A DNA stretch of 24,000 nucleotides, taken from contig JAXLZX010000002.1 in NCBI GenBank assembly GCA_046350695.1, positions 109,070-133,069 on the forward strand. The letters are read 5' to 3'. Shown piece after piece: positions 1 to 21,981 of the stretch (position 1 is its first letter; each line of letters begins with the position of its first letter). The DNA is from Candidatus Saccharimonadales bacterium (GTDB lineage: Bacteria > Patescibacteriota > Saccharimonadia > Saccharimonadales > JACQNP01). Below the pieces are notes generated by a model. It was given only the letters and a program-made list of their open reading frames with translations. It did no database searches and was not told where the DNA came from. The position numbers and the translations under genes were made by a program.

Positions 1-65
1 ACGAAAAGTTAGACTTTTTAGCGGTAAATCCGTTAGACGTACTGAAGTAACAGTAGAATAAATAT

Positions 66-1517
66 CTACAAACTTTTCATTGTTTCAATATATTGTGCGC
101 CAAAAGCATCTTCAGCAGTGTTATCATCCATCGCAAACATCGTTATTCTAAGCATGGCGTATCCGCCATCTCCTTGTCTACTAAATATTGCACCTGGTTG
201 AACTGTAACACCATTAAACACTAATGCTTCACGATTAATATATGTTTGACTACCAATGGTCTTAGTGTGAAATTCCAAACCATGAATATTTACAGTCTTT
301 CTCTTCCCCTCTTGAGCTGCAGCCAAATAATACCCTTCTGCATCCTTGCATGAACCGCTCTTCATACTAACCCTTTCTCTGGTCACTGGAATAGCAGAAA
401 ATATATCCTCAGTCTGGGCTTTCTCTCTTACGTTCAACTGCTTCACTAAATCAAGTACTAACATTGCAGACCTTGACTCGTTAGGTAAGTCACTCGCTGT
501 AATCTTGGCTATTGAGTCTCGTATTTTAACCTCATCACCATTAAACAAAGAAGTTATAGACCTCGAATCATCGTTGACAATTTTAGCAAGCTCTCGGGTC
601 AATTCTGCATATCCATGTCCATATCTTTTTTCGTTAATCTCGGCAAATATCTCCTTTACATCCTCACTCATAACTAGTCCTGCCATACTAAATGCGCTCA
701 GTAAATCATTGCCAGTACTGGAATCAATAAATGGATTAGCCAGAATATTACCCGCATATGTTTTCTCTAAAAATTCTTTATCCGCATCTATCTCTATTCC
801 AATATTCCAATCAACTGAATCTAGATTTTGCTCATCTGCCTGCACAACACTCTGCAGCATAAAGCTCACGCCTTTCATATCTACACTAGGCATAATTATT
901 CGAAGTCTACCATCTTCTAAATATTCTGACCTAGCTCCAGATTCACCTTTGCTGCATGTAATCGCCTTTCTTAATAACTCAGTCGTTTGACTCTGGGCGT
1001 CATTATTTTTACCTGGATTACCTGACAACATAAATGTTAACAGAAAATCGGCATCTGCAATTTCACCAGTTTTTTCATAGAACCTGAACGAGCTACTACT
1101 AAATATAGTTTGATTGTCAAAGCTTGCTTGACTCGTAACTTCGTCGACAGCCTTCTGATATCTTTGGTAGTCCTGATCTGTTTCTAATGCCGTCTCTAAC
1201 TCAGAGACTGTAACATGATTAAGCTTACTAACTCCTACACTAGTGACAGTATTACTCCCGGACTCATCAATACTGACTAAGCCAGCATTAATTATAGGAT
1301 CTATCCTCAGTCTATCTCCTGAATACCCTCTATTAATACTTACTTCAAAACCACTAGATAAATCCCTAACAAAATTAGAACCATCAAAATCTCTAGGTAC
1401 GACATTAGATAAATAACCTGCAACCCTGCGTTCTGCATGCTGCATTCTTAGCTCATATAGTTCCGTATACAGACTCTCTAACTGCTGTTGCTCAGGTACT
1501 ATACAGACTTCAGACAT
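66..1517 (-). CDS. Hypothetical protein of about 483 aa; acidic, soluble, no recognisable domain. Downstream partner of the Fic/Doc-like gene.
   Basis: Long uninterrupted minus-strand ORF (track 66..1550, with GTG at 1550). I prefer the ATG at 1517 (MSEVCIV...), which lies 7 nt after the TAG stop (1525-1527) of the upstream gene. The GTG at 1550 would overlap that gene by 26 nt and has no Shine-Dalgarno (SD) sequence at usable spacing. No TM segment, signal peptide, Walker A or obvious nuclease motif seen by eye. Confidence 0.6.
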   Translation of the reverse strand: MSEVCIVPEQQQLESLYTELYELRMQHAERRVAGYLSNVVPRDFDGSNFVRDLSSGFEVSINRGYSGDRLRIDPIINAGLVSIDESGSNTVTSVGVSKLNHVTVSELETALETDQDYQRYQKAVDEVTSQASFDNQTIFSSSSFRFYEKTGEIADADFLLTFMLSGNPGKNNDAQSQTTELLRKAITCSKGESGARSEYLEDGRLRIIMPSVDMKGVSFMLQSVVQADEQNLDSVDWNIGIEIDADKEFLEKTYAGNILANPFIDSSTGNDLLSAFSMAGLVMSEDVKEIFAEINEKRYGHGYAELTRELAKIVNDDSRSITSLFNGDEVKIRDSIAKITASDLPNESRSAMLVLDLVKQLNVREKAQTEDIFSAIPVTRERVSMKSGSCKDAEGYYLAAAQEGKRKTVNIHGLEFHTKTIGSQTYINREALVFNGVTVQPGAIFSRQGDGGYAMLRITMFAMDDNTAEDAFGAQYIETMKSL

Positions 1518-1524
1518 AGCAATT

Positions 1525-2649
1525 CTAGTACTCCCTTGAAAAATCCGCACGATACAACTGGTTGTCCTTTATTGGATTACCATCATCACCATAAATAGTC
1601 CACAGTGGTTTATCGCCTGCTGTTGATTCGATCACTCTATTAAAATATTCAGCTTTTTCTTCTGCGTCTCTTGTAATTATTTCTAGGGCTTTATCATCAT
1701 CGACAGTCTCAAGCAAGGCATGCAGCGAACTCTTAATACCGTCTGAGTCTCCCCTGCTTGCTGCATCTAAGATACCTGGGGCATCTCCATACCTACAAGC
1801 ATACATAGGGCCAAATCCATTTTGCTGCATAATCTTAATAAATTTCTGCTTTAAATCAGAATCCGATATACCAGAAATTTTGTCAACCATTTCCGCTCGA
1901 TTAACTACATCGTCACCCCAGTATGCAATCAGCGTACCCATAGCTTTACGATTTTGTTTTTCTGTCTTTTCCTGGACGAACGAACTTACATAAGACCTAT
2001 CTGCATAATACATAGAGTTTCGCGCTTCTGGAGTAAAGCCTAAGACCCGTCTCATTGCAGCTTGATCATAGTGATTTGAAGTGTCGATGCCATACTTTAT
2101 CAGTTGATATACCGCCCTGGCAGTTCGCTTATTTCCGTCCTTGAAGGCCTGCATACCCACAATAATATTAGCCATGAGCTGACCCGCTTTACCAAGTTGA
2201 CCTTCAGCTGCAAATTTCTTAGTTACCTCTAATGCATTCGAAAATACTTCACCCCTTTTCTCTGGGCTTAGACCAACAAAACCTGCTACATATTCATCAC
2301 CCTGACCATGACCTAATACAACCTCTTCTTCGCTAACGTTTGAATCTTCTACGCCAAATAGTTTCATATTAACAAATGCAATGGCTACTGCTGCCTCGGC
2401 TTCATTTGCACTAGTAATCATTTCGCTACGTTTCTCTGGATCGCTCAGTATTTGATTGGGGTCGAGTTCTTTAAGTGCAGTCATAAGATTTGCGACGTCG
2501 CCAAACTCACCTCGTTCACCCGTATATTTCGTACCTTCTATTAGCTCTTGTTGACTCGGGACAGAATCAATAACATACCTAATATCAGGGGTCTGCTGTG
2601 GTAGTTTTGGTATAAAACCTGGCGCTTCGCCAATTAGTGTTTCGGACAT
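1525..2649 (-). CDS. Fic/Doc (Fido) fold domain protein with a degenerate core motif, 374 aa.
   Basis: The central segment LGKAGQLMANIIVGMQAFKDGNKRTARAVYQLIKYG matches the Fic core HxFx(D/E)GNGRxxR and especially the Doc variant HxFx(D/N)(A/G)NKR. The catalytic His position is Gln (CAG). ATG at 2649, TAG stop at 1525. The N- and C-terminal flanks are unassignable by eye. Confidence 0.6.
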   Translation of the reverse strand: MSETLIGEAPGFIPKLPQQTPDIRYVIDSVPSQQELIEGTKYTGERGEFGDVANLMTALKELDPNQILSDPEKRSEMITSANEAEAAVAIAFVNMKLFGVEDSNVSEEEVVLGHGQGDEYVAGFVGLSPEKRGEVFSNALEVTKKFAAEGQLGKAGQLMANIIVGMQAFKDGNKRTARAVYQLIKYGIDTSNHYDQAAMRRVLGFTPEARNSMYYADRSYVSSFVQEKTEKQNRKAMGTLIAYWGDDVVNRAEMVDKISGISDSDLKQKFIKIMQQNGFGPMYACRYGDAPGILDAASRGDSDGIKSSLHALLETVDDDKALEIITRDAEEKAEYFNRVIESTAGDKPLWTIYGDDGNPIKDNQLYRADFSREY

Positions 2650-2677
2650 TTTTTGTTTTTATTTATTAACAGATTAC

Positions 2678-2706
2678 ATTATAGCACAAAATTATGATTT
2701 TGTCTA
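2678..2706 (-). promoter_or_regulatory. Sigma70-type promoter for the Fic/Doc-like operon: TAGACA, 17-nt spacer, TGCTATAAT.
   Basis: On the minus strand the -35 TAGACA is at 2706..2701, the spacer is 17 nt, and the extended -10 TGC-TATAAT has its hexamer at 2683..2678. The predicted transcription start site (TSS) is near 2671, giving an A-rich leader of about 22 nt to the ATG at 2649. Confidence 0.55.
2686..2703. promoter_or_regulatory. Perfect 7-4-7 palindrome ACAAAAT-TATG-ATTTTGT inside the promoter spacer; candidate operator.
   Basis: Left arm 2686-2692 and right arm 2697-2703 are exact reverse complements. The element fills the -35/-10 spacer and overlaps 3 nt of the -35 hexamer. Confidence 0.35.
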
Positions 2707-2734
2707 TTGTTTGTAGTTGTGTTTGTAAAACTTT

Positions 2735-3121
2735 TTATCCTAGGCGAAGTTTGATTCTATCGATCACATCAGCAATAACAACCTGTGATTTTACAAGATA
2801 GTCATCTACGCCAAGCTTTTCGGCCTTTTCTTTGTCAGCTTCTTGGCTCAGTGCTGTCAACATTATGATTTTGACATTTGCTGTCTCTGGGGTATTTCGT
2901 AGAATATCAAGAACATCAAAGCCACTTACCTTAGGCATCATCACATCGAGCAAAATCAAATCCGGCTTATATTCCAACGTAGAGGCTAGGGCATCTTCAC
3001 CATTCGGCACCCTATGAACATTAAAACCCTCAGTTTTTAATCTTGTAATATAAACACTTGCTAAAGCATCATCATCCTCTACGAGTAATATTTTCTTTTG
3101 TTTTGTAGTAGTTTCTTCCAT
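2735..3121 (-). CDS. Single-domain response regulator (CheY-like receiver only), 128 aa.
   Basis: KILLVEDDD acidic pocket, LDVMMP phospho-acceptor Asp context, MLTAL, and the conserved Lys in YLVKS. There is no output domain. ATG at 3121, TAA stop. Confidence 0.85.
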   Translation of the reverse strand: MEETTTKQKKILLVEDDDALASVYITRLKTEGFNVHRVPNGEDALASTLEYKPDLILLDVMMPKVSGFDVLDILRNTPETANVKIIMLTALSQEADKEKAEKLGVDDYLVKSQVVIADVIDRIKLRLG

Positions 3122-3128
3122 AATGCTT

Positions 3129-3156
3129 ATGATACCTCAATTACTTATTTATGCAA
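3129..3156 (-). promoter_or_regulatory. Candidate promoter TTGCAT, 16-nt spacer, TATCAT, then 7 nt to the ATG of the response regulator (leaderless-type).
   Basis: -10 TATCAT at 3134..3129, seven nt from the ATG at 3121. The -35-like TTGCAT at 3156..3151 lies in the 3' end of pyrG. Confidence 0.35.
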
Positions 3157-4749
3157 TAGTGACTCGATAAAGCCAGCGAACATCGGGTGGGGCCGGTTCG
3201 GCCTTGATTTAAATTCTGGATGGAATTGGCTTGCGAGGAAAAAAGGATGATGCCTTGCCTCTATCATTTCCACTAAATTTCCATCAGGGCTTGTACCACT
3301 AGCAATAATTCCCCATTTTTCATATCGGTTCCTGTACTTATTGCTACATTCAAAGCGATGTCTATGTCTCTCAACAATCTTGTTAGTGCCGTAAACTTTT
3401 GCGGCCAGGCTACCTCTGGCAATCTCGCACGGATAATCACCTAGCCTCATTGTTCCGCCAGTATTGACCTTGTCCTCCTGACCAGCCATGGTGTTTATGA
3501 CAAACTCTTTTGAGCCGTCTTCAAGCTCAGGAGTAGATGCAGTATTCACGCCAGCATTCCTCGCGGCGGCAATTACGGCCATTTGTAGCCCGAGACATAA
3601 CCCTAAATATGGAACTTTGTTTTTCAAACAATATTGAGCAACTTTAATCTTGCCATTTAATGCTCTCGAACCGAAACCACCGGGTACAACAATTCCCTGA
3701 CAACCCTCTATCGCTTTCTCTATATCGACAATTTCTGTGTCTAGATTCTCTGCATCAATCCACTTTATTGACAGCTGAACATCTTGCCACCAGGCTGCCG
3801 AACGCAAAGCTTCAAAAACCGACATATAGGTGTCCTGATTCTCCAGATATTTTGCCACAACACCAATAGTAATTTTTTTGTCGTGTCTACTAGTTGCCTT
3901 GTCAACAACGTTACGCCACTGCTTCAGGTTAGGCTTTGAGTCTTTCAATCCAATCTTCTTTGTGATCACACTAGCAATACCCGAGTCCTCGAGCGTCAGT
4001 GGAACCTCATAAATAGACGAAGCGTTTGCCAAAAGTGATATTGCTTCCTCTGACACACCAGAGAACATACTCAGCTTTTTTATTACGTTTTTTGGAGATT
4101 CTTCTTCGCTCCTGACCACCAAAACATCTGGGGTAATACCAAGTCCGCGAAGATCACGAACTGCATTTTGAGCTGGCTTGGTCTTAAATTCGTGACTAGC
4201 ACCCAAATACGGCATGTAAACAACATGTACAAAGGCGCAATTCTCTCGACCGACACTAAATGAGAGCTCCCGAATCGCTTCAATAAAATTTAAACCTTCG
4301 TAATCACCGACTGTTCCACCAATCTCGACAATATGTACATCATATCCTTGCGATACCTTGATAATCTCATCCTGGATCGCTGAAGTAACATGAGGAATAA
4401 ACTGAACTGTTTTGCCTGTATACTTACCTGACCGTTCGTCGTTTATTACCTTAGACAAAACTCGTCCACTCATTAGAGAGCTACCTTGTGTTAACTCTTG
4501 ATCTAAAAATCGTTCGTAGTGCCCAAGGTCCAAATCGGTTTCTGCTCCATCAGCCGTCACAAAGCATTCCCCGTGTTCTGCTGGGTTTAGTAAACCAGCA
4601 TCTACATTAAGATATGGATCACATTTTTGGATATTTACTTTTAACCCACGGGCTTTTAGTAGGTTACCAATCGAGGCGGCGGTAATACCCTTTCCCAATC
4701 CTGAAAGCACTCCACCCGTAACAAACACATACTTAGTAGACTTTGCCAC
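3145..4749 (-). CDS. pyrG: CTP synthase, 534 aa.
   Basis: N-terminal YVFVTGGVLSGLGKG, the GATase Cys in GLCLGLQ, and HRHRFE/FHPEF motifs. Typical length. GTG start at 4749 preceded by AGGGAG. Confidence 0.97.
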   Translation of the reverse strand: MAKSTKYVFVTGGVLSGLGKGITAASIGNLLKARGLKVNIQKCDPYLNVDAGLLNPAEHGECFVTADGAETDLDLGHYERFLDQELTQGSSLMSGRVLSKVINDERSGKYTGKTVQFIPHVTSAIQDEIIKVSQGYDVHIVEIGGTVGDYEGLNFIEAIRELSFSVGRENCAFVHVVYMPYLGASHEFKTKPAQNAVRDLRGLGITPDVLVVRSEEESPKNVIKKLSMFSGVSEEAISLLANASSIYEVPLTLEDSGIASVITKKIGLKDSKPNLKQWRNVVDKATSRHDKKITIGVVAKYLENQDTYMSVFEALRSAAWWQDVQLSIKWIDAENLDTEIVDIEKAIEGCQGIVVPGGFGSRALNGKIKVAQYCLKNKVPYLGLCLGLQMAVIAAARNAGVNTASTPELEDGSKEFVINTMAGQEDKVNTGGTMRLGDYPCEIARGSLAAKVYGTNKIVERHRHRFECSNKYRNRYEKWGIIASGTSPDGNLVEMIEARHHPFFLASQFHPEFKSRPNRPHPMFAGFIESLLHK

Positions 4750-7440: not shown

Positions 7441-8379
7441 TTACTTCGTAGTTTTGAACTTGAGATACCGTCGAGTTGCTATATATGAAGAAATGACACC
7501 GATTAATACACCTATACCAATCTGAGCAGACATTATTAACCAGAAATTATTCTTGAACAGACCATTAGCATATGGAATATCCAGAATTATACTCGTTGCC
7601 TCAATTACAGAAGCTGAAGCAAACATTGTACCAACAAGAAATACCGAAATAACTCCAGAGACTATTCCGTAGATCATTGTTTCAACAATAAACGGACCCC
7701 TGATATAGGCGGTGCTCGCCCCAAGCAGGCGCATAATCTGTAGTTCTTCACGCCGGTTGAAAATCGCCATACGAATTGTATTAAAGATAATTAACATAGA
7801 TACCAACAAGAATATGATAACCCCAACAAACCCGGCTTGGCGGAAGAATTTGGTAGCTTGTGAAATCTTATCTATAGCATCTTTACGGTCACCAGAATAC
7901 GAGGTCTCATCTGACTGCAGCTTCTTTATATCCTCTCTTTCTAGATATTGTTTAATTTCATCAATCCTATTGGGATCGATAGGCTTTATTTGTAAAGACG
8001 CCGGCAAAGGATTGTCCGTCTGAGAAATTGCCACCAGTAGATCAGGATTATCGGCATTTTGCTGTTTATAGATCTCTAGCGCTTTGTCCTTTGATAGGTA
8101 TTCAATAGACTTTACATTACTATTTGCTTTTAGCTCACTAATGATTTTTTCTCTATCTTTATCAGATATATTATCTATAAGATAAACAGATATATCTATT
8201 TTGTCCGTAATTTGCTTGATTGTTTGTGCAAACGTCTGATTAACGATAAGTGAAAATAACACTATGGTAAGTGTTATAACCATAACTGCCATAGCGGCAA
8301 TCCCAAGCGTAAGATTCCGGCCAAAATTCTGCATTCCAGCCCTAGTGATTCTAGAAAGGGTTATTAGTCGTCGTTTCAT
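7441..8379 (-). CDS. ftsX: Cell division ABC transporter permease FtsX, 312 aa.
   Basis: TM1, a large extracytoplasmic loop, then three C-terminal TMs. 4-nt ATGA overlap with ftsE. Sits directly downstream of ftsE. Confidence 0.85.
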   Translation of the reverse strand: MKRRLITLSRITRAGMQNFGRNLTLGIAAMAVMVITLTIVLFSLIVNQTFAQTIKQITDKIDISVYLIDNISDKDREKIISELKANSNVKSIEYLSKDKALEIYKQQNADNPDLLVAISQTDNPLPASLQIKPIDPNRIDEIKQYLEREDIKKLQSDETSYSGDRKDAIDKISQATKFFRQAGFVGVIIFLLVSMLIIFNTIRMAIFNRREELQIMRLLGASTAYIRGPFIVETMIYGIVSGVISVFLVGTMFASASVIEATSIILDIPYANGLFKNNFWLIMSAQIGIGVLIGVISSYIATRRYLKFKTTK

Positions 8380-9059
8380 ATCTGCTTATACTCCGCGTTT
8401 GCGCGGTCGCTCTCTATCTTTCCATCACTTATGACAATTACTCGTCGCTTTAGTTTATTCACTATTTCTTGGTTATGGGTTGTTAGTAAAACTGTCGTTC
8501 CATAATGGTTAATTTTCTCGAGTACTTTTATAACGTCCCAGGCATGTTTAGGGTCAAGATTCCCTGTTGGCTCATCAGCAATTAAGATTTTTGGCTGACG
8601 AACAATTGCCCGAGCTATGGCCACGCGTTGACGTTCACCACCAGAAAGCTCCATCGGCATACGCTTTTCTTTGCCCTTTAGACCAACAATATCCAATACT
8701 CTTGGCACGGTATGATTAATCTCTTTGTTGCCATAACCAACGATTTCCAATGCAAACGACACATTTTCAAATACATTTTTATTTGGCAGCAGTTTGAAAT
8801 CCTGAAAAACTACTCCAATTTTTCGACGGAGAAGTGGGATATCTCTGTCTTTTAGCTTGTCGTAGTCTACACCACCAACAATTATTTTACCGCTAGATGG
8901 CCGCTCTTCCCTGGTTAATAGTTTTAGTAGAGTTGATTTGCCGGCGCCACTTTTTCCGATTATTATAACAAACTCTTTAGGTTCAACATGTAGACTTATT
9001 CGGTCCAACGCTACGTTACTTCTGTTATATGACTTAGTTACCCTGTCTAGTAATATCAT
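8376..9059 (-). CDS. ftsE: Cell division ATP-binding protein FtsE, 227 aa.
   Basis: Walker A GKSGAGKST, ABC signature LSGGERQR, Walker B ILIADEPTGNLD. Paired with ftsX. Confidence 0.92.
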   Translation of the reverse strand: MILLDRVTKSYNRSNVALDRISLHVEPKEFVIIIGKSGAGKSTLLKLLTREERPSSGKIIVGGVDYDKLKDRDIPLLRRKIGVVFQDFKLLPNKNVFENVSFALEIVGYGNKEINHTVPRVLDIVGLKGKEKRMPMELSGGERQRVAIARAIVRQPKILIADEPTGNLDPKHAWDVIKVLEKINHYGTTVLLTTHNQEIVNKLKRRVIVISDGKIESDRANAEYKQI

Positions 9060-9110: not shown

Positions 9111-10202
9111 CTAGCCATTTTCACTCAAATTCATTACTAAACTTGCCTCAATAAAACCATCAATTTCGCCGTTCAAAACTTTGTCCGGGTCACTAGATTC
9201 ATGTCTAGTTCTGAGGTCTTTTACCTGTTTGTAGGGATGTAGAACGTAAGATCTAATCTGGTTGCCCCACTCCGCTGACTGATTTGGTCCTTTCAATTCT
9301 GAAACCTTTTCGGCATGTTGCTCTATCTGAAGTTGAGCCAGACGCGAACGTAAAATTGTCATAGCGGTTTCTTTATTCTGTATTTGGCTTCGCTCATTTT
9401 GAATGGCAACAACTATTCCGGTTGGCAAGTGAGTAACCCTCACCGCAGAGTCTGTAGTGTTCACCGATTGACCACCATGTCCGCCACTGCGGTAGACATC
9501 AATTTTTAACTCTTTGTCATCTATCTCCACCTCATCTGGCGTATCAACCTTAGGCATGACCTCGACTTTTGCAAAACTAGTTTGCCGTAAATTGTCCGCG
9601 TTAAACGGACTTAACCTTACCAGCCTATGCACACCATGCTCATTCTTTAGCTTACCGAATATAAACTGACCTGATATTTCCAGTGATACGCTTTTAACTC
9701 CAGCTTCATCCCCAGATGACTCATCAATAACCGCAACATCATACTTATGTGACTCAGCCCAGCGTACATACATCCTCAATAACATCTGCGCCCAATCTTG
9801 AGCATCCGTTCCGCCAGCACCAGCATAAATTCCAAGGATTACATCGTGATCATCATAAGGTCCAGAGTATTGTAGCTCTCGTTTTAACTCACTAAACACA
9901 GTTTCTACTGATGTTAGCTGGCTTTGTAATTCCGTCTTGATTGAATCATCACCCAATTCTGCTAAATCCTTCATTTCATTTAGGTCGGTCTGAAGTTTTT
10001 GCCAAGGATTAATTCTCTGCTCTAGTTTGTTAATTTTTTTCATAACCTCTTGGGCGGCAAGGTTGTCTTGCCAAAACTCAGGCACCGATGATTCAGCCCT
10101 TAATTCATCAAGCTCCCTACACCTACCGTCTATATCGAGACTGGCAACGACTTTGCTTACTTCAATAAGCAATTTATCTATTGAAGAAATTAACTCCTGC
10201 AT
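9111..10202 (-). CDS. prfB: Peptide chain release factor 2, encoded in a single frame, 363 aa.
   Basis: SPF tripeptide (RLSPFN) and GGQ (SGGHGGQSVN). The full-length ORF has no internal frameshift site. Confidence 0.95.
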   Translation of the reverse strand: MQELISSIDKLLIEVSKVVASLDIDGRCRELDELRAESSVPEFWQDNLAAQEVMKKINKLEQRINPWQKLQTDLNEMKDLAELGDDSIKTELQSQLTSVETVFSELKRELQYSGPYDDHDVILGIYAGAGGTDAQDWAQMLLRMYVRWAESHKYDVAVIDESSGDEAGVKSVSLEISGQFIFGKLKNEHGVHRLVRLSPFNADNLRQTSFAKVEVMPKVDTPDEVEIDDKELKIDVYRSGGHGGQSVNTTDSAVRVTHLPTGIVVAIQNERSQIQNKETAMTILRSRLAQLQIEQHAEKVSELKGPNQSAEWGNQIRSYVLHPYKQVKDLRTRHESSDPDKVLNGEIDGFIEASLVMNLSENG

Positions 10203-14594: not shown

Positions 14595-14954
14595 CTAAGT
14601 CTCCCGTTTTAAGCGCGATATGACCTTACGACGGATGCTGCGCGTGCCATGTGTTTCGGCATATTTTTTAATTTGATTTTTCATTTTTGCCTCTACAATA
14701 TCGATAGCTGCATAAATATTTATAGTTGTCTCTTTGGCCGTTAGTTTATCGTTAGGAAGTGTCAATATAACTTCACATGTGCGCTTTTTATTAGATTTTT
14801 CTTTCGCTTCCTTTAAAAGGATTTCAGCATGTGCGCTCTCTCTTGCCTTACGGGGTAAATATCTATCCAATTTGCCGATTTTATTTATTGCGTACTTATT
14901 AAGGTCTTCATCTATCATTATATGTACGCCTTTTATTTCCAATTTTTTTATCAT
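14595..14954 (-). CDS. hpf: Ribosome hibernation factor, short HPF/RaiA (S30AE) family, 119 aa.
   Basis: Pattern IKGVHIMIDEDLNKYAINKIGKLDRY...AHAEILL...CEVIL...YAAIDIVEAKMKNQIKK is typical of HPF/YfiA. ATGA overlap with serS. Confidence 0.8.
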   Translation of the reverse strand: MIKKLEIKGVHIMIDEDLNKYAINKIGKLDRYLPRKARESAHAEILLKEAKEKSNKKRTCEVILTLPNDKLTAKETTINIYAAIDIVEAKMKNQIKKYAETHGTRSIRRKVISRLKRET

Positions 14955-16249
14955 ATTTTTTCCTTTCCTCCCATATATGGCCTGAGTACTTCTGGTACAA
15001 TCACATTACCTTCAGATGTTTGATAATTTTCAATTATAGCAATTGGACCCCTGCTAAGTGGTAATGCCGTGGCATCATTCGTATGGATTAAACCAATAGT
15101 ACCATCGGATTTTCTAAATCTAGTCTTGAGCCGACGAGCCTGATAGTCAGTCATGTAATCAGCCGTATGCGTTTCACGGTAACTCTGTTGTCCTGGCATC
15201 CAAGCATTAATGTCAACTCCTCGGGCATTTGGCTTTCCTATGTCTGCAGTACATTTATTTAGTACTTGATATGGTATTCCTAGTAAATTCATAATCTTTT
15301 CCTGCAAAGCAACGAAAAACAGGTGTTCTTGCAACCCATTTTCGCCCACATCCAGACTCTCCATTTCAAGCTTATCGAACTGATGCATACGGAACATACC
15401 CTCCATATCCTTGCCATACGTCCCAGCTTCTCGTCGAAACGAAGATGCATAACCAATGTAACGCACCGGCAGTTCAGGTGCAGTAAGAATTTCGTTGGCA
15501 TGCATACTACCCAATACATGTTCGGCACTTCCCTGTAACCATAAGTCCTCGTTTTCGATTTTATACCTATCATCTTGAGGTTCAAGCCTATCCATTGCAT
15601 CGTAGAGTTCCGTTCGAATCATGAACGGTGGCAACACCGGCACGAAGGTCTTGTCACTTACTTGAAGATTGTTCTCACTAATCACCTGGCGTATAAAATC
15701 CTGGTCTGTTAGTTTATCCAAAATAAATTGAATAATAGCGAATTGTAACTTCACTAAATCGCCCTTTATGTAAGTAAATCTTGACCCAGTGACCTTAGCT
15801 GCTCGCTCCTTATCTAGCCAGCCTTTGGCTTCAGCGATTTCGGCGTGACTTTTTGGCTGAAAATCAAATTTTGTTGGCTCGCCAACAGTTTTTACTACCA
15901 CGTTCTCGTCTTCACTAGTACCAACCGGGACATCATCCAGTGGCATATTTGGAACCTGTTTAAGTATACCTAGCCACTCGTTTTGAACACTATCCAAGTA
16001 CTCTTCCCGCTCGGCTAGTTCAATCTTTATTTGTTTACCCTCATCAATTAGAGCTTGTTCGGGTTGACCTCCTTTCATTTTCTCGGCATTCTCGTTTCGT
16101 CGCTTTCTAATCTCTTCTACTTGCTGCAAAAGTTCGCTTCTTTGCGCATCCAACTGTATCAACTTATCAATATCAACAGAATACCCCTTCTGCTCGCTTT
16201 TTTGTTTTACCACGTCTGAATTGTCTCTAATGTACTGGATATCTATCAT
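14951..16249 (-). CDS. serS: Seryl-tRNA synthetase, 432 aa.
   Basis: N-terminal coiled-coil arm (MIDIQYIRDN...) and class II core motifs (FRREAG, MHQFDKLE, GLIHTNDATALPLSRG). Confidence 0.95.
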   Translation of the reverse strand: MIDIQYIRDNSDVVKQKSEQKGYSVDIDKLIQLDAQRSELLQQVEEIRKRRNENAEKMKGGQPEQALIDEGKQIKIELAEREEYLDSVQNEWLGILKQVPNMPLDDVPVGTSEDENVVVKTVGEPTKFDFQPKSHAEIAEAKGWLDKERAAKVTGSRFTYIKGDLVKLQFAIIQFILDKLTDQDFIRQVISENNLQVSDKTFVPVLPPFMIRTELYDAMDRLEPQDDRYKIENEDLWLQGSAEHVLGSMHANEILTAPELPVRYIGYASSFRREAGTYGKDMEGMFRMHQFDKLEMESLDVGENGLQEHLFFVALQEKIMNLLGIPYQVLNKCTADIGKPNARGVDINAWMPGQQSYRETHTADYMTDYQARRLKTRFRKSDGTIGLIHTNDATALPLSRGPIAIIENYQTSEGNVIVPEVLRPYMGGKEKI

Positions 16250-16300: not shown

Positions 16301-17284
16301 TTATTCGGTAAACAATCCAATTATTATCATGATAAAAACTATCCCATAAATGGCATACAAAATTATCGATCCTAGACTCCGCGATACTTTACGTCCAAGA
16401 GATGAGTTACTTTTTACCATCGCAGATATTCTATCTTCTTCGCTAACTTCGGGAATATAGTTGAGTGTGGTTTGTTTGTGCTTTATCTCGTCTACAACCA
16501 CATCAACAGACTCTAAGAGAAGCTTTACGTCGTTAGCATTACGTCTATCGGATGTAAGTATAAAAAATATGCTTTTATCAATAACTTCGATATCTTGGTA
16601 TTTACTTTTTTGCTGAACTGCTTGCATGACATCAGGTGTAATAATACTTAATGCGTCTATATTCTCTCCTGGCCGGTAATAAAGAGTAAAATCATTGGCA
16701 AAATTTCCCTCTAGCTTCACAGGCTCGGTCGCATCTCCACGTTTAGTAATAGACCATGAATACTTACTGTCTAGTATTAGATGTGGAAATGCCTTTCCAA
16801 GCCTGACCCTAGCTATAGTGTAATAGTAAGTTCTCCTATCTCTGCCGCTACCAATCGCGTACTGGTATATAAACACATCGCAGACATGTCCCTCGTAAAC
16901 AGCAGAAATTACCGAACTTACCTTACGTCCATGTCCAACGCCATACATACCGGGTGGTATAAAGTACGCATCGTCTACCGATATTTTCGCTATTTCCCAA
17001 GCGTTATTCTTAGCAAAGTTTTTCCACTCTTTGCTCCTTACTATTTCTACATTTCTTAGCATAAGATAGACCACGGAAAAAACTGCAATAAAAGTAAAAT
17101 AATAAATAGGGCCGGCGGTATCGGAAGCTACTCCAGAATTAAAAAATAATACTTGACCTATAAGTAAGAACACGAAAGGAACAGCCATTGCAAAGATTAC
17201 TGTAATCAATTTTCGCCTGTTATAACTATCCAATGTGACCAGACAAGAATAATCTATTTCTGCGAGTTTTTTATTATTTTCCAT
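16301..17284 (-). CDS. Membrane protein, DUF3137-like: two N-terminal TMs, a soluble core and a C-terminal TM, 327 aa.
   Basis: Hydrophobic helices at the N-terminus (ITVIFAMAVPFVFLLIG, IYYFTFIAVFSVVYLML) and C-terminus (IILYAIYGIVFIMIIIGLF). The segment EGNFANDFTLYYRPGENIDALSIITPDVMQAV resembles the DUF3137 signature as I recall it. 11-nt overlap with the upstream nuclease gene. Confidence 0.45.
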   Translation of the reverse strand: MENNKKLAEIDYSCLVTLDSYNRRKLITVIFAMAVPFVFLLIGQVLFFNSGVASDTAGPIYYFTFIAVFSVVYLMLRNVEIVRSKEWKNFAKNNAWEIAKISVDDAYFIPPGMYGVGHGRKVSSVISAVYEGHVCDVFIYQYAIGSGRDRRTYYYTIARVRLGKAFPHLILDSKYSWSITKRGDATEPVKLEGNFANDFTLYYRPGENIDALSIITPDVMQAVQQKSKYQDIEVIDKSIFFILTSDRRNANDVKLLLESVDVVVDEIKHKQTTLNYIPEVSEEDRISAMVKSNSSLGRKVSRSLGSIILYAIYGIVFIMIIIGLFTE

Positions 17285-18068
17285 TTTTCCTAGAACTTAT
17301 ATGTTTTAATGTTAACTCAGTTCTCGCTTTAGCGTAAGTACAGAAGTCACAATCACCGCCCATAGCCGCACTACCCACTGGTGGCATTTCATCGTTATCC
17401 ATACATTTTTTCATATCTTTAAGTGTTGGCTCTACCCAAGTATCACTACCTTTGTATGGGATTATCTTGGTCCTAAACTCTACACGATCATTAAAACCGT
17501 CGAGATCCATTCGCCCATTAGCATATACAAAATATCCTATATCGCTTACACTAAAACCATTTTGTCGCAACAGCCACTGATATACCTCAAGCTGTCTTTT
17601 GTAACTTATCTGCCAGTCTGAATCAATACCCACCTCGGCATCTTTCGCTGTAGCCTTGTAGTCTACAACAATTAGATTGCCCTTCTCGTCTACCCATATA
17701 TCATCAACTCCGCCAAACACGTGCAAGTTGGTTGGCCCATGAATTGCTACCACGCCCACAAAAGTTTCTCGCCAAGTATCAAGCTGTTCATGCTCAAATG
17801 GTATTGCATCGACTCCAAACTCTACCATTAAAGGGTGAGGCTGTTTCTTATTACGATAATCATCAAATTCCTTCTTAAACAATTCGTCTATAGCTTTGTT
17901 TATGTTAAATGGAGGCCCACTCGGACGCTTAATCTTAAGCCTGACATCAAGCCAAAAACACCGAGGACACTGCATAAACAACTCAATCTTACTTCTACTA
18001 ACCTTAAAAGCATCCTTTTGTCCAGGAATGTATGGTTTGTTTCTTTCTCTCCAGTAGTTTCCAGCCAT
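17274..18068 (-). CDS. PD-(D/E)XK nuclease superfamily protein, Cas4/RecB-like with flanking Cys pairs, 264 aa.
   Basis: Core GGVDDIW...LIVVDYKA (D...D/ExK) followed by QLEVYQWLL (QxxxY). CPRC lies near the N-terminus and C...CDFC near the C-terminus, as in Cas4/AddB-type Cys-stapled nucleases. Confidence 0.7.
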   Translation of the reverse strand: MAGNYWRERNKPYIPGQKDAFKVSRSKIELFMQCPRCFWLDVRLKIKRPSGPPFNINKAIDELFKKEFDDYRNKKQPHPLMVEFGVDAIPFEHEQLDTWRETFVGVVAIHGPTNLHVFGGVDDIWVDEKGNLIVVDYKATAKDAEVGIDSDWQISYKRQLEVYQWLLRQNGFSVSDIGYFVYANGRMDLDGFNDRVEFRTKIIPYKGSDTWVEPTLKDMKKCMDNDEMPPVGSAAMGGDCDFCTYAKARTELTLKHISSRKNGK

Positions 18069-18072
18069 CAGC

Positions 18073-18768
18073 CTATTGTAGCAATTTAGCTGACGTTACA
18101 ACAGAAGCTGTTTCAGCTCGTAAAGTGAAGTCGTTTACATTAATCTTCTCAATAATCTTGGTGTCAAATAATTCTTTTTCTGAGTCTGACCAACCTCCCT
18201 CGGGACCGACAAAAATCCCAAGATTGTCGTTCTCGGCAAACTTCCCCTCTTCGCCTTGTTCACAAACAAAAAGTTTAATTTTACTAGAATATTCTTCGAT
18301 TGCAGTTGTAAGTTTTATTGGGGCGCGAACTTCAGGAATATCACTACGACCACATTGTTCGGCGGCTTCGGTAACAATTTTTTTCCACCTCTCTAAACGA
18401 CTATCTGATAGATCCGTTTTATCACATCGATCTGAAATAATAGGCACGAAATTACTAATACCAATTTCTGTACATTTTTGAAGCACCCATTCGTTCTTAT
18501 CTTTTTTTAGTAGTGACCAAAAAAGATAAACCTCCCTTTTTGGAATTTGGCGCGACATTTCCGTAATTAATTTAAGATGGGCTTCTTTGTCATTTATCTC
18601 TTCAATCTCATAAAGCCTATCTGTCTCCCTGCCATCAAAAAGCACAATCTTTTGCCCTGGCTTAAACCGTAAAACACGGTTCCACTGGTTGAGTAAATTT
18701 GGATCGTGTAACCAAAAATCAGACCTAAGCTCTATATCCTCACCCGTATAAAATCTATGTAATTTCAC
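18073..18768 (-). CDS. rsmE: 16S rRNA (uracil1498-N3)-methyltransferase RsmE, 231 aa.
   Basis: MKLHRFY start, PUA-like N-terminal domain, and the SPOUT C-terminal motif IFVGPEGGWSDSE. GTG start in a GTGA overlap with the upstream ORF. Confidence 0.85.
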   Translation of the reverse strand: MKLHRFYTGEDIELRSDFWLHDPNLLNQWNRVLRFKPGQKIVLFDGRETDRLYEIEEINDKEAHLKLITEMSRQIPKREVYLFWSLLKKDKNEWVLQKCTEIGISNFVPIISDRCDKTDLSDSRLERWKKIVTEAAEQCGRSDIPEVRAPIKLTTAIEEYSSKIKLFVCEQGEEGKFAENDNLGIFVGPEGGWSDSEKELFDTKIIEKINVNDFTLRAETASVVTSAKLLQ

Positions 18769-19205
18769 GCCGCCACCATTACGCTCTGTATATCTAAAAC
18801 TGGCAGTAGTACAGGTGGAGAAATTCTACCCGATGGATTGTCATCTACGAAAGGACTAATTATACTTACGTCGAACATATCGGCTGCAAATGTTTGAATT
18901 TTAGGCATACTAAGTTTTTGCACAAACTTAATACCGGAAAAGTAGCCCTTCAAAGTTATCTCGTCAAATTGATGTTGGTAAACTTGCTCGTCAAGAGTTA
19001 GTCCTCTATTTAAAATAAATCCGCTCAACGAATGAATAATCAATGGTTTACTTCCATAAATTGTATCCGGATCACCTATAAGCTGTCGTGCCTGATCGGC
19101 AAGCTCAACGGCCAATTCCGGATGAGCCATATCTATATCCCACTGGAGTTCTTGCGCCAATTCAATTGGATTTCCTGGTATGAATATTGTGCTATCTACG
19201 CCCAT
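18765..19205 (-). CDS. Hypothetical protein of 146 aa, soluble, no recognisable domain.
   Basis: Intact ORF occupying the whole gap between two methyltransferase genes. ATG at 19205. Coupled to rsmE through a GTGA overlap. Confidence 0.55.
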   Translation of the reverse strand: MGVDSTIFIPGNPIELAQELQWDIDMAHPELAVELADQARQLIGDPDTIYGSKPLIIHSLSGFILNRGLTLDEQVYQHQFDEITLKGYFSGIKFVQKLSMPKIQTFAADMFDVSIISPFVDDNPSGRISPPVLLPVLDIQSVMVAA

Positions 19206-21471: not shown

Positions 21472-21981
21472 TTATTTTAATTTTTCTGCAAATTTTTTAC
21501 GAAATTTTTCTAACTTTGGATTAATAACCGCTTGGCAATATGCCTGCTCGGGATGACTCATAAAATAATTACGATGGTAGTCTTCAGCCTCATAGAATTT
21601 ATTAAGCTTTTTGATTTTGGTTATAATTTTGCCATTCCATAATTGATTTGCAATACTCAGTGAGTTGTTTATTACATCTAACTGTTCGCTATTTTTGTAC
21701 AATATTATCGAGCGATACTGACTCCCTATATCATTTCCCTGTCTGTTAATTGTGGTTGGATCGTGAATCGACCAAAATATTTCCAATATTTCACCTAGCT
21801 TAATATCGTCTTCATTGAATTCAAGCTTGACCACTTCGGCATGATCTTGGATATTATAATAATTTGGGTCCTCGCCTTCACCGCCACTATAACCTGGCGA
21901 TACATATTCAATACCACTAACAAGCTGATAAGTAGCTTCTAAACACCAAAAACATCCTCCTCCTAAAACAATAGAATTCAT
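21472..21981 (-). CDS. msrA: Peptide methionine (S)-sulfoxide reductase MsrA, 169 aa.
   Basis: N-terminal LGGGCFWC active-site motif, and HDPT and YHRNYF motifs. Confidence 0.93.
   Translation of the reverse strand: MNSIVLGGGCFWCLEATYQLVSGIEYVSPGYSGGEGEDPNYYNIQDHAEVVKLEFNEDDIKLGEILEIFWSIHDPTTINRQGNDIGSQYRSIILYKNSEQLDVINNSLSIANQLWNGKIITKIKKLNKFYEAEDYHRNYFMSHPEQAYCQAVINPKLEKFRKKFAEKLK

What the first reader, a model, noticed from the sequence alone, without database searches (positions are those of the whole stretch)
66..1550. Roughly 480-aa acidic orphan protein coupled to the Fic/Doc-like gene
The second gene of the operon begins either 7 nt after the upstream TAG (ATG at 1517) or overlaps it by 26 nt (GTG at 1550). 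Neither start has a usable SD, so its translation is probably coupled to the Fido gene. I could not recognise any domain, TM helix, signal peptide or nucleotide-binding loop. A large uncharacterised partner tightly coupled to a degenerate Fido protein resembles an effector/immunity, toxin/antitoxin or target-adaptor pair more than housekeeping. It is the only part of this window with no core-metabolism explanation.
Basis: inference. Interest (0 to 1): 0.65.

Follow-up and report, generated by a model that had tools for sequence, protein, structure and literature searches.

The report
Saccharibacteria family protein with Doc-like partner
The "orphan" is a real gene from a large, unnamed and fast-evolving protein family found across Saccharibacteria (TM7) genomes, and here it is co-transcribed with a Doc-like Fido protein that lacks its catalytic histidine; the pair looks more like part of a protein-modification signalling module than a toxin–antitoxin or defence cassette.

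Summary
The ORF, its two candidate starts and the 7-nt gap or 26-nt overlap are as described. ATG 1517 is the supported start, giving a 483-aa protein with pI 4.7. It has no TM helix, no P-loop, and no Pfam, NCBIfam, PADLOC or PDB match.

It is not an orphan. A profile search found 197 cluster representatives sharing a ~230-aa C-terminal domain. Cys390 and Gly442 are invariant, and R298, G300, R308, D392, Y396, G436, P440, R457 and T459 nearly so. Named members are all Saccharibacteria.

In most sampled lineages the gene sits in one chromosomal slot, pyrG–receiver–[X]–rpmA. It evolves fast: about 30% identity where pyrG keeps about 70%.

The Fido-like partner (QAFKDGNKR, a Doc-type motif with His→Gln) was found in only one close relative. 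Other lineages carry FHA-like or unknown partners instead.

One lineage fuses the family domain to a canonical Fic domain (HPFHDGNGR) in the same slot. That Fic domain is weakly but significantly similar to the window's Fido protein.

Both window genes are under purifying selection and share one conserved promoter.

Best reading: a conserved core protein with swappable modifier or reader partners for Thr/Tyr modification. The biochemistry is unknown because both structure models failed.

The parts
66..1517 (-). CDS of the 483-aa acidic protein (stop TAG at 66-68). It belongs to a large uncharacterised Saccharibacteria family.
   Evidence: ORF and translation. The start is supported by homologue P0002 being called from the same ATG. 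Family: 197 representatives. dN/dS 0.19 against the relative.
69..767 (-). Conserved C-terminal domain (residues about 251-483). It holds the blocks PF.ET..A.EL...GL, RYG..Y..L(S/T)RE.AK.VN, G.C.D...YY, NGV.LP.G.L and LR.T.F.FD.
   Evidence: 150-sequence alignment A3 and per-column counts. Profile matches of distant members fall almost entirely in this part. The strongest constraint is at codons 401-483, dN/dS 0.07.
342..350 (-). Cys390-Lys-Asp392. The Cys is invariant (150 of 150) and the Asp nearly so (149 of 150). This is a candidate active or ligand-binding site.
1518..1524 (-). 7-nt spacer between the Fido TAG and the ATG of the 483-aa gene.
   Evidence: The relative keeps the 7-nt length but changes 3 of the 7 bases.
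1531..1537 (-). SD-like AAGGGAG inside the last codons of the Fido gene, 13 nt upstream of ATG 1517.
   Evidence: Sequence. Identical in the relative L001.
1525..2649 (-). CDS of the 374-aa Fido (Doc-like) protein, the first gene of the two-gene unit.
   Evidence: Pfam Fic E=0.0056, below cut-off. Similar to the Fic domain of fusion protein P0033: BLASTP E=2e-4; Smith-Waterman score 74 against shuffles at 34.7±5.4, 0 of 1000 reaching it. dN/dS 0.23 overall and 0.11 over codons 101-200.
2125..2151 (-). Fic/Doc-type motif QAFKDGNKR. It matches the Doc consensus HxFx(D/N)(A/G)NKR except that His is replaced by Gln.
   Evidence: Translation. Identical in the relative. Consensus taken from PMC4177925.
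2678..2706 (-). Sigma-70-like promoter TAGACA-17 nt-TATAAT with a TG extension, about 29 nt upstream of the Fido ATG.
   Evidence: Scan. The whole 85-nt intergenic region is 99% identical in the relative, while synonymous divergence in the flanking genes is 0.09-0.36.
2735..3121 (-). Single-domain response-regulator receiver gene. It is the conserved left anchor of the slot.
   Evidence: Pfam Response_reg E=2.6e-24. It lies next to the slot in L001, L002, L004, L006, L007, L013, L023, L024, L025, L026, L027 and L028.
2..61 (+). 3' end of rpmA (ribosomal protein L27). It converges on the 483-aa gene with the two stop codons 4 nt apart, and is the conserved right anchor of the slot.
   Evidence: Translation. 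L27 is adjacent in L001, L002, L004, L006, L007, L008, L023, L024, L025, L026, L027, L028 and L031.

Best explanation
The gene at 66-1517 encodes a soluble, acidic member of a large, undescribed protein family. The family is a chromosomally anchored, probably vertically inherited (inferred from the conserved slot) and fast-evolving component of Saccharibacteria genomes. It is normally located between pyrG-receiver and rpmA.

Its conserved part is a ~230-aa C-terminal domain with an invariant Cys-x-Asp and conserved Arg, Lys, Tyr and Thr residues.

Around this core gene, different lineages carry different partners of the protein-modification signalling type:
- FHA-like (phosphothreonine-reading) proteins in several lineages.
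- A canonical Fic AMP-transferase domain fused to the family domain in one lineage.
- In this window, a Doc-like Fido protein co-transcribed from a single promoter and ending 7 nt before the core gene.

The most likely mechanism is inferred, not shown. The family protein is the hub of a Thr/Tyr-directed modification circuit, either as the substrate or as a regulated enzyme. The Fido partner binds it. Because its catalytic His is replaced by Gln while the rest of the Doc motif and the motif region remain under purifying selection, it probably acts as a non-catalytic or non-canonical adaptor or regulator rather than as a toxin.

Shown: gene structure, operon, family size, synteny, the fusion, partner turnover and selection. 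Inferred: physical interaction, modification and the role of Cys-x-Asp.
For: Family and domain:
- 197 representatives, with the conserved C-terminal domain.
- The members that carry a taxon name are Saccharibacteria or Saccharimonadales.

Slot and rate:
- The slot pyrG-RR-[0-1 gene]-family-[0-3 genes]-rpmA is conserved in more than 10 lineages.
- Family identity is about 30% where pyrG is 59-71% and the receiver 71-80%.

Link to Fic:
- Fusion P0033 has the family domain at about residues 212-485 (E=1.8e-56).
- It also has a Fic domain with HPFHDGNGR at residue 623. Pfam gives 28.9 bits against a cut-off of 24, and it hits solved Fic structures (3cuc E=3e-4, IbpA, FICD).
- The fusion cluster has 12 members from independent assemblies, on contigs up to 1.19 Mb. 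It occupies the same slot.
- The window's Fido protein is similar to that Fic domain: E=2e-4 and 0 of 1000 shuffles reaching the score.

FHA-like partners:
- L003 scores above the Pfam cut-off.
- L011, L002 and L026 score below it.
- L028 was picked up independently by a seed HMM at E=1.6e-6.

Operon and selection:
- One promoter, and no promoter-like or terminator-like site found between the genes. The junction and promoter are conserved in the relative.
- dN/dS is 0.19 and 0.23, lowest over the Fic-motif region and the C-terminal domain.

Not mobile or defence-like: no PADLOC, phage, plasmid or viral hits.
Against: - No fold or biochemical assignment was obtained. Both AlphaFold models are poor (pLDDT 40.8 and 37.7), and Foldseek gave nothing at E<=1e-3.
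- The Fido partner occurs with the family gene in only one close relative. Only one of the 152 family proteins checked by motif search is a fusion representative.
- Most partners in other lineages have no recognisable domain, and most FHA hits are below the Pfam threshold.
- The search for homologues of the Fido protein used only the word-indexed tool. 'One homologue' may therefore understate its spread.
- No interaction or modification has been shown.
Confidence: 0.45

Rival explanations
1. The pair is a toxin-antitoxin or effector-immunity module. The Fido protein is a Doc-like toxin and the 483-aa protein neutralises it, or the reverse.
For: - The motif is Doc-type with K at position 8. According to PMC4177925, Doc proteins are toxins of Phd-Doc modules.
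- The genes are spaced 7 nt apart in one operon.
- Both genes evolve faster than housekeeping genes.
Against: - The catalytic His is Gln in both known copies.
- The partner is 483 aa and lies downstream, unlike the small labile antitoxins of Phd-Doc modules described in PMC4177925. That Phd is encoded upstream of Doc is my own knowledge.
- Neither window protein has an (S/T)xxxE(G/N) inhibitory motif.
- The 483-aa family is chromosomally fixed and is present in many lineages without any Fido gene.
- No PADLOC, plasmid or phage matches.
Confidence: 0.12
2. The slot is a host-interaction locus. The family protein and its variable partners are exported effectors of the epibiont, aimed at its actinobacterial host and diversifying in an arms race.
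For: - Divergence is very fast relative to the flanking genes.
- Partner genes turn over between lineages.
- Fic domains are common effector domains (PMC4177925).
- The proteins are acidic, and many of the slot's proteins begin MSE or MTE.
Against: - There is no signal peptide or TM segment.
- No secretion-system genes were seen within the flanks examined.
- The gene is single-copy in every sampled locus and sits among housekeeping genes.
- dN/dS is about 0.2, which is not positive selection.
Confidence: 0.2
3. The adjacency has no functional meaning. The Fido-like gene is a decaying lineage-specific insertion into a tolerant, variable slot, and the family protein works independently of it.
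For: - Only one homologue of the Fido protein was found, at 90% identity.
- The catalytic His is lost.
- The slot's content varies widely between lineages.
- The canonical Fic gene near the family member in L030 is not adjacent to it and is not similar to the window's Fido protein.
Against: - The independent fusion of the family domain with Fic sits in the same slot.
- The Fido gene is under purifying selection, strongest around its motif: dN/dS 0.11.
- The shared promoter and the junction are conserved.
Confidence: 0.2

Closest known systems
Phd-Doc toxin-antitoxin module (phage P1 Doc, a Fido-fold kinase of EF-Tu)
   Same: The upstream protein carries the Doc-type variant of the Fic motif: F-x-D-G-N-K-R with Lys at position 8. 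It is encoded in a tight two-gene operon.
   Different: - The catalytic His is Gln.
- The protein is 374 aa, against about 126 aa for P1 Doc (own knowledge).
- The partner is a 483-aa downstream protein from an unrelated, chromosomally fixed family, not a small antitoxin. That Phd lies upstream of Doc is my own knowledge.
- Pfam Fic is below threshold and there is no PADLOC hit.
Class I Fic toxin with a separate FicA-type antitoxin that supplies the inhibitory helix (S/T)xxxE(G/N)
   Same: A Fido-fold protein is encoded next to a separate partner protein.
   Different: - Neither window protein has an (S/T)xxxE(G/N) motif.
- A motif of that form (SNMFEG, TSWFEG) sits at one conserved family column in fusion P0033 and in P0002. 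It occurs in only 6 of 150 members, and the window has TSLFNG there. It is therefore not a family feature.
Multi-domain Fic proteins in which extra domains provide targeting or regulation, such as IbpA and FICD
   Same: In lineage L006/L007 the family domain and a canonical Fic domain form one 729-aa polypeptide. This fits the family domain being a targeting, regulatory or substrate module for Fic.
   Different: - The fused domain has no homology to any described Fic accessory domain.
- In the window the two parts are separate genes in the opposite order, and the Fido part is degenerate.
FHA-domain phosphothreonine-dependent signalling modules of Gram-positive bacteria
   Same: FHA or FHA-like proteins are the most frequent recognisable neighbours of the family gene, seen in L002, L003, L011, L026 and L028.
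   Different: - No Ser/Thr kinase or phosphatase gene was seen in the flanks.
- The window itself has no FHA gene.
- Most FHA hits are below the Pfam cut-off.

Membership tests
Fic/Doc (Fido) superfamily - upstream 374-aa protein | Nine-residue active-site motif: HxFx(D/E)GNGR for Fic, or HxFx(D/N)(A/G)NKR for Doc (PMC4177925) | tested here: inconclusive
   The motif is QAFKDGNKR. F, D, G, N, K and R match the Doc consensus. The first position does not; see the next row.
Fic/Doc (Fido) superfamily - upstream 374-aa protein | Catalytic His at motif position 1 | tested here: not met
   It is Gln (codon CAG) in the window and in the 90%-identical relative.
Fic/Doc (Fido) superfamily - upstream 374-aa protein | Pfam PF02661 score at or above the gathering cut-off | tested here: not met
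   17.9 bits against a cut-off of 24, E=0.0056, matching residues 151-183 only. There is supporting similarity to the bona fide Fic domain of P0033.
Fic/Doc (Fido) superfamily - upstream 374-aa protein | All-alpha Fido core fold of six to eight helices | tested here: inconclusive
   The AlphaFold model is almost entirely helical, but its mean pLDDT is 37.7 from an alignment of two sequences.
Phd-Doc / FicTA toxin-antitoxin modules | A small antitoxin partner that neutralises the toxin; for Fic class I, one carrying (S/T)xxxE(G/N) | tested here: not met
   The partner is 483 aa and lies downstream. A regular-expression search found no such motif in either window protein.
Phd-Doc / FicTA toxin-antitoxin modules | The two genes co-occur as a cassette across genomes | tested here: not met
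   The pair recurs only in L001 (pyrG 96% identical) and in L008, a 2.5-kb contig identical to the window. About 17 other lineages have the 483-aa family gene without the Fido-like gene.
Known anti-phage defence systems (PADLOC-DB 2.0) | A match to a model of a known or candidate defence protein | tested here: not met
   Neither protein matched any family at E<=1. There were no phage, plasmid or viral-contig relatives.
Undescribed Saccharibacteria 'RYG...CxD' family (defined here) - 483-aa protein | C-terminal domain with invariant Cys390 and Gly442 and near-invariant R298, G300, R308, D392, Y396, G436, P440, R457 and T459 | tested here: met
   The window protein carries all of these residues except Pro440, where it has Gln (P145 Q4 A1 of 150). 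Sources: alignment A3 of 150 sequences and the per-column counts.
Undescribed Saccharibacteria 'RYG...CxD' family (defined here) - 483-aa protein | Location in the pyrG-receiver-[X]-rpmA slot | tested here: met
   Window order on the minus strand is pyrG 3145-4749, receiver 2735-3121, Fido 1525-2649, family gene 66-1517; the rpmA 3' end is at 2-61 on the plus strand. The same slot is seen in more than 10 other lineages.
Any curated protein family or solved structure - 483-aa protein | A significant sequence or profile match | tested here: not met
   Pfam, NCBIfam, PHROGs and PADLOC found nothing. In a Pfam scan of 66 members, only the fusion's Fic domain scored above its family cut-off, one other hit (BFN_dom) reached E=0.0033, and no family recurred in more than two members. 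PDB searches with the single sequence and with a 150-sequence profile found nothing.

The most novel reading that the evidence does not exclude
The family is the core of a previously unrecognised, Saccharibacteria-specific post-translational signalling system. Its conserved domain would be a new enzyme or regulated hub with a Cys-x-Asp/Arg site. Its state would be written by Fic/Doc-type modifiers (fused, adjacent or degenerate) and read by FHA-type partners, possibly controlling the epibiont's growth or division. The slot lies next to ftsEX, a CHAP hydrolase gene and a Ctp-type protease gene.
Probability: 0.25. Interest if true: 0.7.

Novelty: new variant of a known kind. Interest (0 to 1): 0.45.

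Why it matters
Saccharibacteria have tiny genomes in which a large share of genes have no known function. A family present across sampled Saccharibacteria lineages, with no detectable homologue, is a good candidate for biology specific to the epibiotic lifestyle.

The fusion with a canonical Fic domain and the recurrent FHA-like neighbours give a concrete hypothesis to test: regulation by Thr/Tyr AMPylation or phosphorylation. They also give a starting point for a new Pfam entry.

The window's His→Gln Doc-like protein would be an example of a Fido pseudoenzyme retained under selection.

If the adjacency turns out to be fortuitous, the result is simply one more conserved hypothetical family.

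Tried and rejected
- **Single-sequence family searches.** Pfam, NCBIfam, PADLOC, PHROGs and PDB gave nothing for the 483-aa protein.
- **Word-indexed homologue search.** It found only 4 proteins. Repeating it with a 4-sequence profile added none.
- **Structure prediction.** The models have pLDDT 40.8 and 37.7. Foldseek against PDB then gave no match at E<=1e-3, so I draw no fold conclusion.
- **Profile against PDB (150 sequences).** Nothing below E=1.
- **Recurrent weak Pfam hits across 66 members at E<=10.** None recurred in more than two members.
- **Iterative search with the Fido protein against all ORFs of the fetched loci.** Only its own orthologues appeared.
- **The (S/T)xxxE(G/N) inhibitory-helix idea.** The motif is present at one conserved column in only 6 of 150 members and is absent in the window. 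I rejected it as a family feature.
- **Phage, plasmid or viral origin.** No matches.
- **Rfam.** No RNA family in the window.
- **Literature.** Searching Saccharibacteria or Patescibacteria with Fic or FHA found nothing about this family.
- **Canonical Fic gene near the family member in L030.** It is two genes away and not similar to the window's Fido protein. I treat it as weak support at most.
Full report
**Observation**

On the minus strand the window carries four genes in this order:
- pyrG at 3145-4749.
- A single-domain response-regulator receiver at 2735-3121.
- A 374-aa gene at 1525-2649.
- The target ORF at 66-1550.

The 374-aa gene ends with TAG at 1527-1525. ATG 1517 follows after 7 nt, and GTG 1550 would overlap by 26 nt.

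ATG 1517 is the supported start. The 86%-identical homologue is called from the same ATG, and several homologues checked start with MSE.

The product is 483 aa with pI 4.68. It has no hydrophobic segment compatible with a TM helix and no Walker A motif.

'No usable SD' needs qualifying. AAGGGAG sits 13 nt upstream of the ATG, inside the last codons of the upstream gene, and is conserved in the relative. About half the genes in the window lack any SD motif, so absence of an SD says little here.

**Operon**

The only strong promoter-like site in the region is TAGACA-17-TGnTATAAT at 2706-2678, matching 11 of 12 positions. It lies upstream of the 374-aa gene. The scan found no promoter-like or terminator-like site between the two genes.

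The 85-nt receiver-Fido intergenic region is 99% identical in the relative L001. Synonymous divergence in the flanking genes is 0.09-0.36.

The two genes are therefore one transcription unit with a conserved control region. The 483-aa gene's stop codon lies 4 nt from the stop codon of the convergent rpmA.

**The upstream protein**

Pfam Fic matches residues 151-183 at E=0.0056, 17.9 bits, below the cut-off of 24. The motif is QAFKDGNKR.

The published consensuses are HxFx(D/E)GNGR for AMPylating Fic proteins and HxFx(D/N)(A/G)NKR for Doc kinases (PMC4177925). The window motif is the Doc variant with the first His replaced by Gln. The 90%-identical relative has the same Gln, so this is not a sequencing error.

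The word-indexed search found only that one homologue.

**The 483-aa protein is not an orphan**

The word-indexed search found just four proteins. An exhaustive HMMER profile search of 1.84 billion representatives found much more:
- 197 clusters at E<=1e-3.
- 161 clusters at E<=1e-10.
- 76 clusters at E<=1e-30.

Most members are 500-590 aa. Matches of distant members fall almost entirely in profile positions about 280-510.

In a 150-sequence alignment Cys390 and Gly442 are invariant. R298, G300, R308, D392, Y396, G436, P440, R457 and T459 are at least 90% conserved; the window itself has Gln at position 440. No His is conserved, so a Cys-His protease triad is unlikely; that is inference.

Nothing in the curated libraries matches the family:
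- Pfam, NCBIfam, PHROGs and PADLOC.
- A Pfam scan of 66 members at E<=10.
- PDB, even with the 150-sequence profile.

The members that carry a taxon name are Candidatus Saccharibacteria or Saccharimonadales. All other named members are annotated only as 'hypothetical protein'.

**Synteny**

The family gene lies in the slot pyrG-receiver-[0-1 gene]-family-[0-3 genes]-rpmA(convergent)-methyltransferase-LPG_synthase_TM-xseA-xseB in W, L001, L002, L004, L006/7, L009/23/24, L013, L025, L026/27, L028 and L031.

Other members sit elsewhere:
- Next to nrdR in L014-L020 (Pfam on the L015 gene).
- Next to ychF in L005.
- In three further contexts in L029, L030 and L032.

The family evolves fast. Against loci whose pyrG is 59-71% and whose receiver is 71-80% identical to the window's, the family protein is 28-33% identical.

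Against the close relative (pyrG 96% identical) dN/dS is 0.19 for the family gene and 0.23 for the Fido gene. Housekeeping neighbours give 0.03-0.12. The minima fall at codons 401-483 of the family gene (0.07) and codons 101-200 of the Fido gene (0.11), the segment that holds the motif. Both are real genes under selection.

**Partners**

The Fido-like gene accompanies the family gene only in L001 and in L008, a 2.5-kb contig identical to the window. Elsewhere the flanking genes differ.

- FHA or FHA-like proteins:
  - L003, a 230-aa protein above the Pfam cut-off.
  - L011, two paralogues, one at E=8.6e-4.
  - L002 and L026, upstream proteins of 532 and 543 aa.
  - L026, a downstream 368-aa protein.
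  - L028, a 260-aa protein found at E=1.6e-6 by an HMM built only from the others.
- Partners without any recognisable domain occur in L004, L005, L013, L023, L025, L031 and L032.

**Independent link to Fic**

One family representative, P0033 (729 aa), has the family domain at about residues 212-485 (E=1.8e-56). A canonical Fic domain follows, with HPFHDGNGRTAR at residue 623:
- Pfam gives 28.9 bits against a cut-off of 24.
- It hits solved Fic structures: 3cuc at E=3e-4, IbpA and FICD.

Its 90% cluster has 12 members from NCBI, JGI, ENA and Logan assemblies, on contigs up to 1.19 Mb. It is the only gene between the receiver and rpmA in L006 and L007. It is therefore a genuine fusion in the same slot.

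The window's Fido protein (residues 85-180) aligns with the Fic domain of P0033:
- BLASTP E=2e-4.
- Smith-Waterman score 74 against 34.7±5.4 for shuffles, with 0 of 1000 reaching it.
- It is the best non-self hit among all ORFs of the fetched loci, though weak by HMMER at E=0.11.

A further family member, in L030, has a canonical 183-aa Fic gene two genes upstream. That gene is not similar to the window's Fido protein and may be coincidental.

**Interpretation**

The data fit a conserved core protein with swappable partners of the modification-signalling type: Fic/Doc writers and FHA readers.

In the window the partner has lost the catalytic His but keeps the rest of the Doc motif under constraint. 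That points to a binding or regulatory pseudoenzyme, or to non-canonical chemistry, rather than a toxin.

The interaction itself, any modification, and the function of the Cys-x-Asp/Arg site are inferred.

The data do not fit a mobile toxin-antitoxin or defence cassette:
- No PADLOC, phage, plasmid or viral matches.
- A partner of the wrong size.
- No inhibitory motif in either window protein.
- A fixed chromosomal position.

A host-directed effector locus and a functionally meaningless adjacency remain open as rivals.

**Limits**

The models are poor and the Foldseek output is uninformative.

The partner census covers about 18 lineages, not whole genomes. The exhaustive search was used for the 483-aa protein only, so the apparent rarity of the Fido protein rests on the less sensitive tool.

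Noticed in passing
window 8376-9059, 9111-10202, 14951-16249, 17274-18068, 18765-19205, 21472-21981 (all minus strand): At least six genes have a TATAAT-like hexamer (TATAAT, TACAAT or TAGAAT) ending only 6-9 nt upstream of the annotated start codon, with no SD motif. This suggests leaderless or near-leaderless mRNAs are common in this genome. About half of the 22 long ORFs lack any SD-like motif.
   Followed up: partly
window 2650-2734: The 85-nt receiver-Fido intergenic region, which holds the promoter and an A-rich leader, is 99% identical to the relative L001. Synonymous divergence in the flanking genes is 0.09-0.36, so there is strong constraint on this non-coding stretch.
   Followed up: partly
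window 59-68: The stop codons of the convergent rpmA (TAA at 59-61, plus strand) and the 483-aa gene (TAG at 66-68, minus strand) are 4 nt apart, with no room for a terminator between them.
   Followed up: no
L023:7656-8369, L031:3615-5450, L002:7866-9629: Downstream partners of the family gene in three lineages share a C-terminal motif of the form DG(S/V)...HR(A/W)AA. L023 and L031 match at BLASTP E=3e-8. By eye it resembles the ParB/sulfiredoxin 'DGxHR' signature, but Pfam found nothing.
   Followed up: partly
L031:462-1823: The upstream partner (453 aa) has, by eye, an FHA-like segment and a C-terminal Cys...His...Asp pattern (GVCRHMA...HEWARY...IID) like that of transglutaminase-like proteases. 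Pfam gave no hit, and the local FHA HMM gave only E=1.2.
   Followed up: partly
P0033 residues 332-337; P0002 residues 322-327; window residues 322-327 (nt 537-554, minus strand): At one conserved family column the fusion protein has SNMFEG and the window's close relative has TSWFEG. Both fit the Fic inhibitory-helix pattern (S/T)xxxE(G/N). The window has TSLFNG. Only 6 of 150 members fit the pattern, so it may be chance.
   Followed up: yes
window 2735-4749 and the same genes in L001, L002, L006, L023, L025, L026 and L028: A stand-alone receiver-domain gene immediately follows pyrG in all of these Saccharibacteria loci. From memory this resembles the pyrG-spo0F adjacency of Bacillus subtilis; I did not test it.
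   Followed up: no
L015:4343-6142 (minus strand): In the lineages where the family gene sits next to nrdR, the gene transcribed divergently from it encodes a 599-aa protein with an mTERF domain (Pfam E=5.9e-13). That domain is described mainly from organelles.
   Followed up: no
L021:2842-3798 and L021:5337-5624: One distant family member is flanked by a tyrosine recombinase (Phage_integrase, E=5e-31) and a Cdd1 'pathogenicity locus' protein. No other sampled locus showed recognisable mobile-element genes immediately beside a family member.
   Followed up: no
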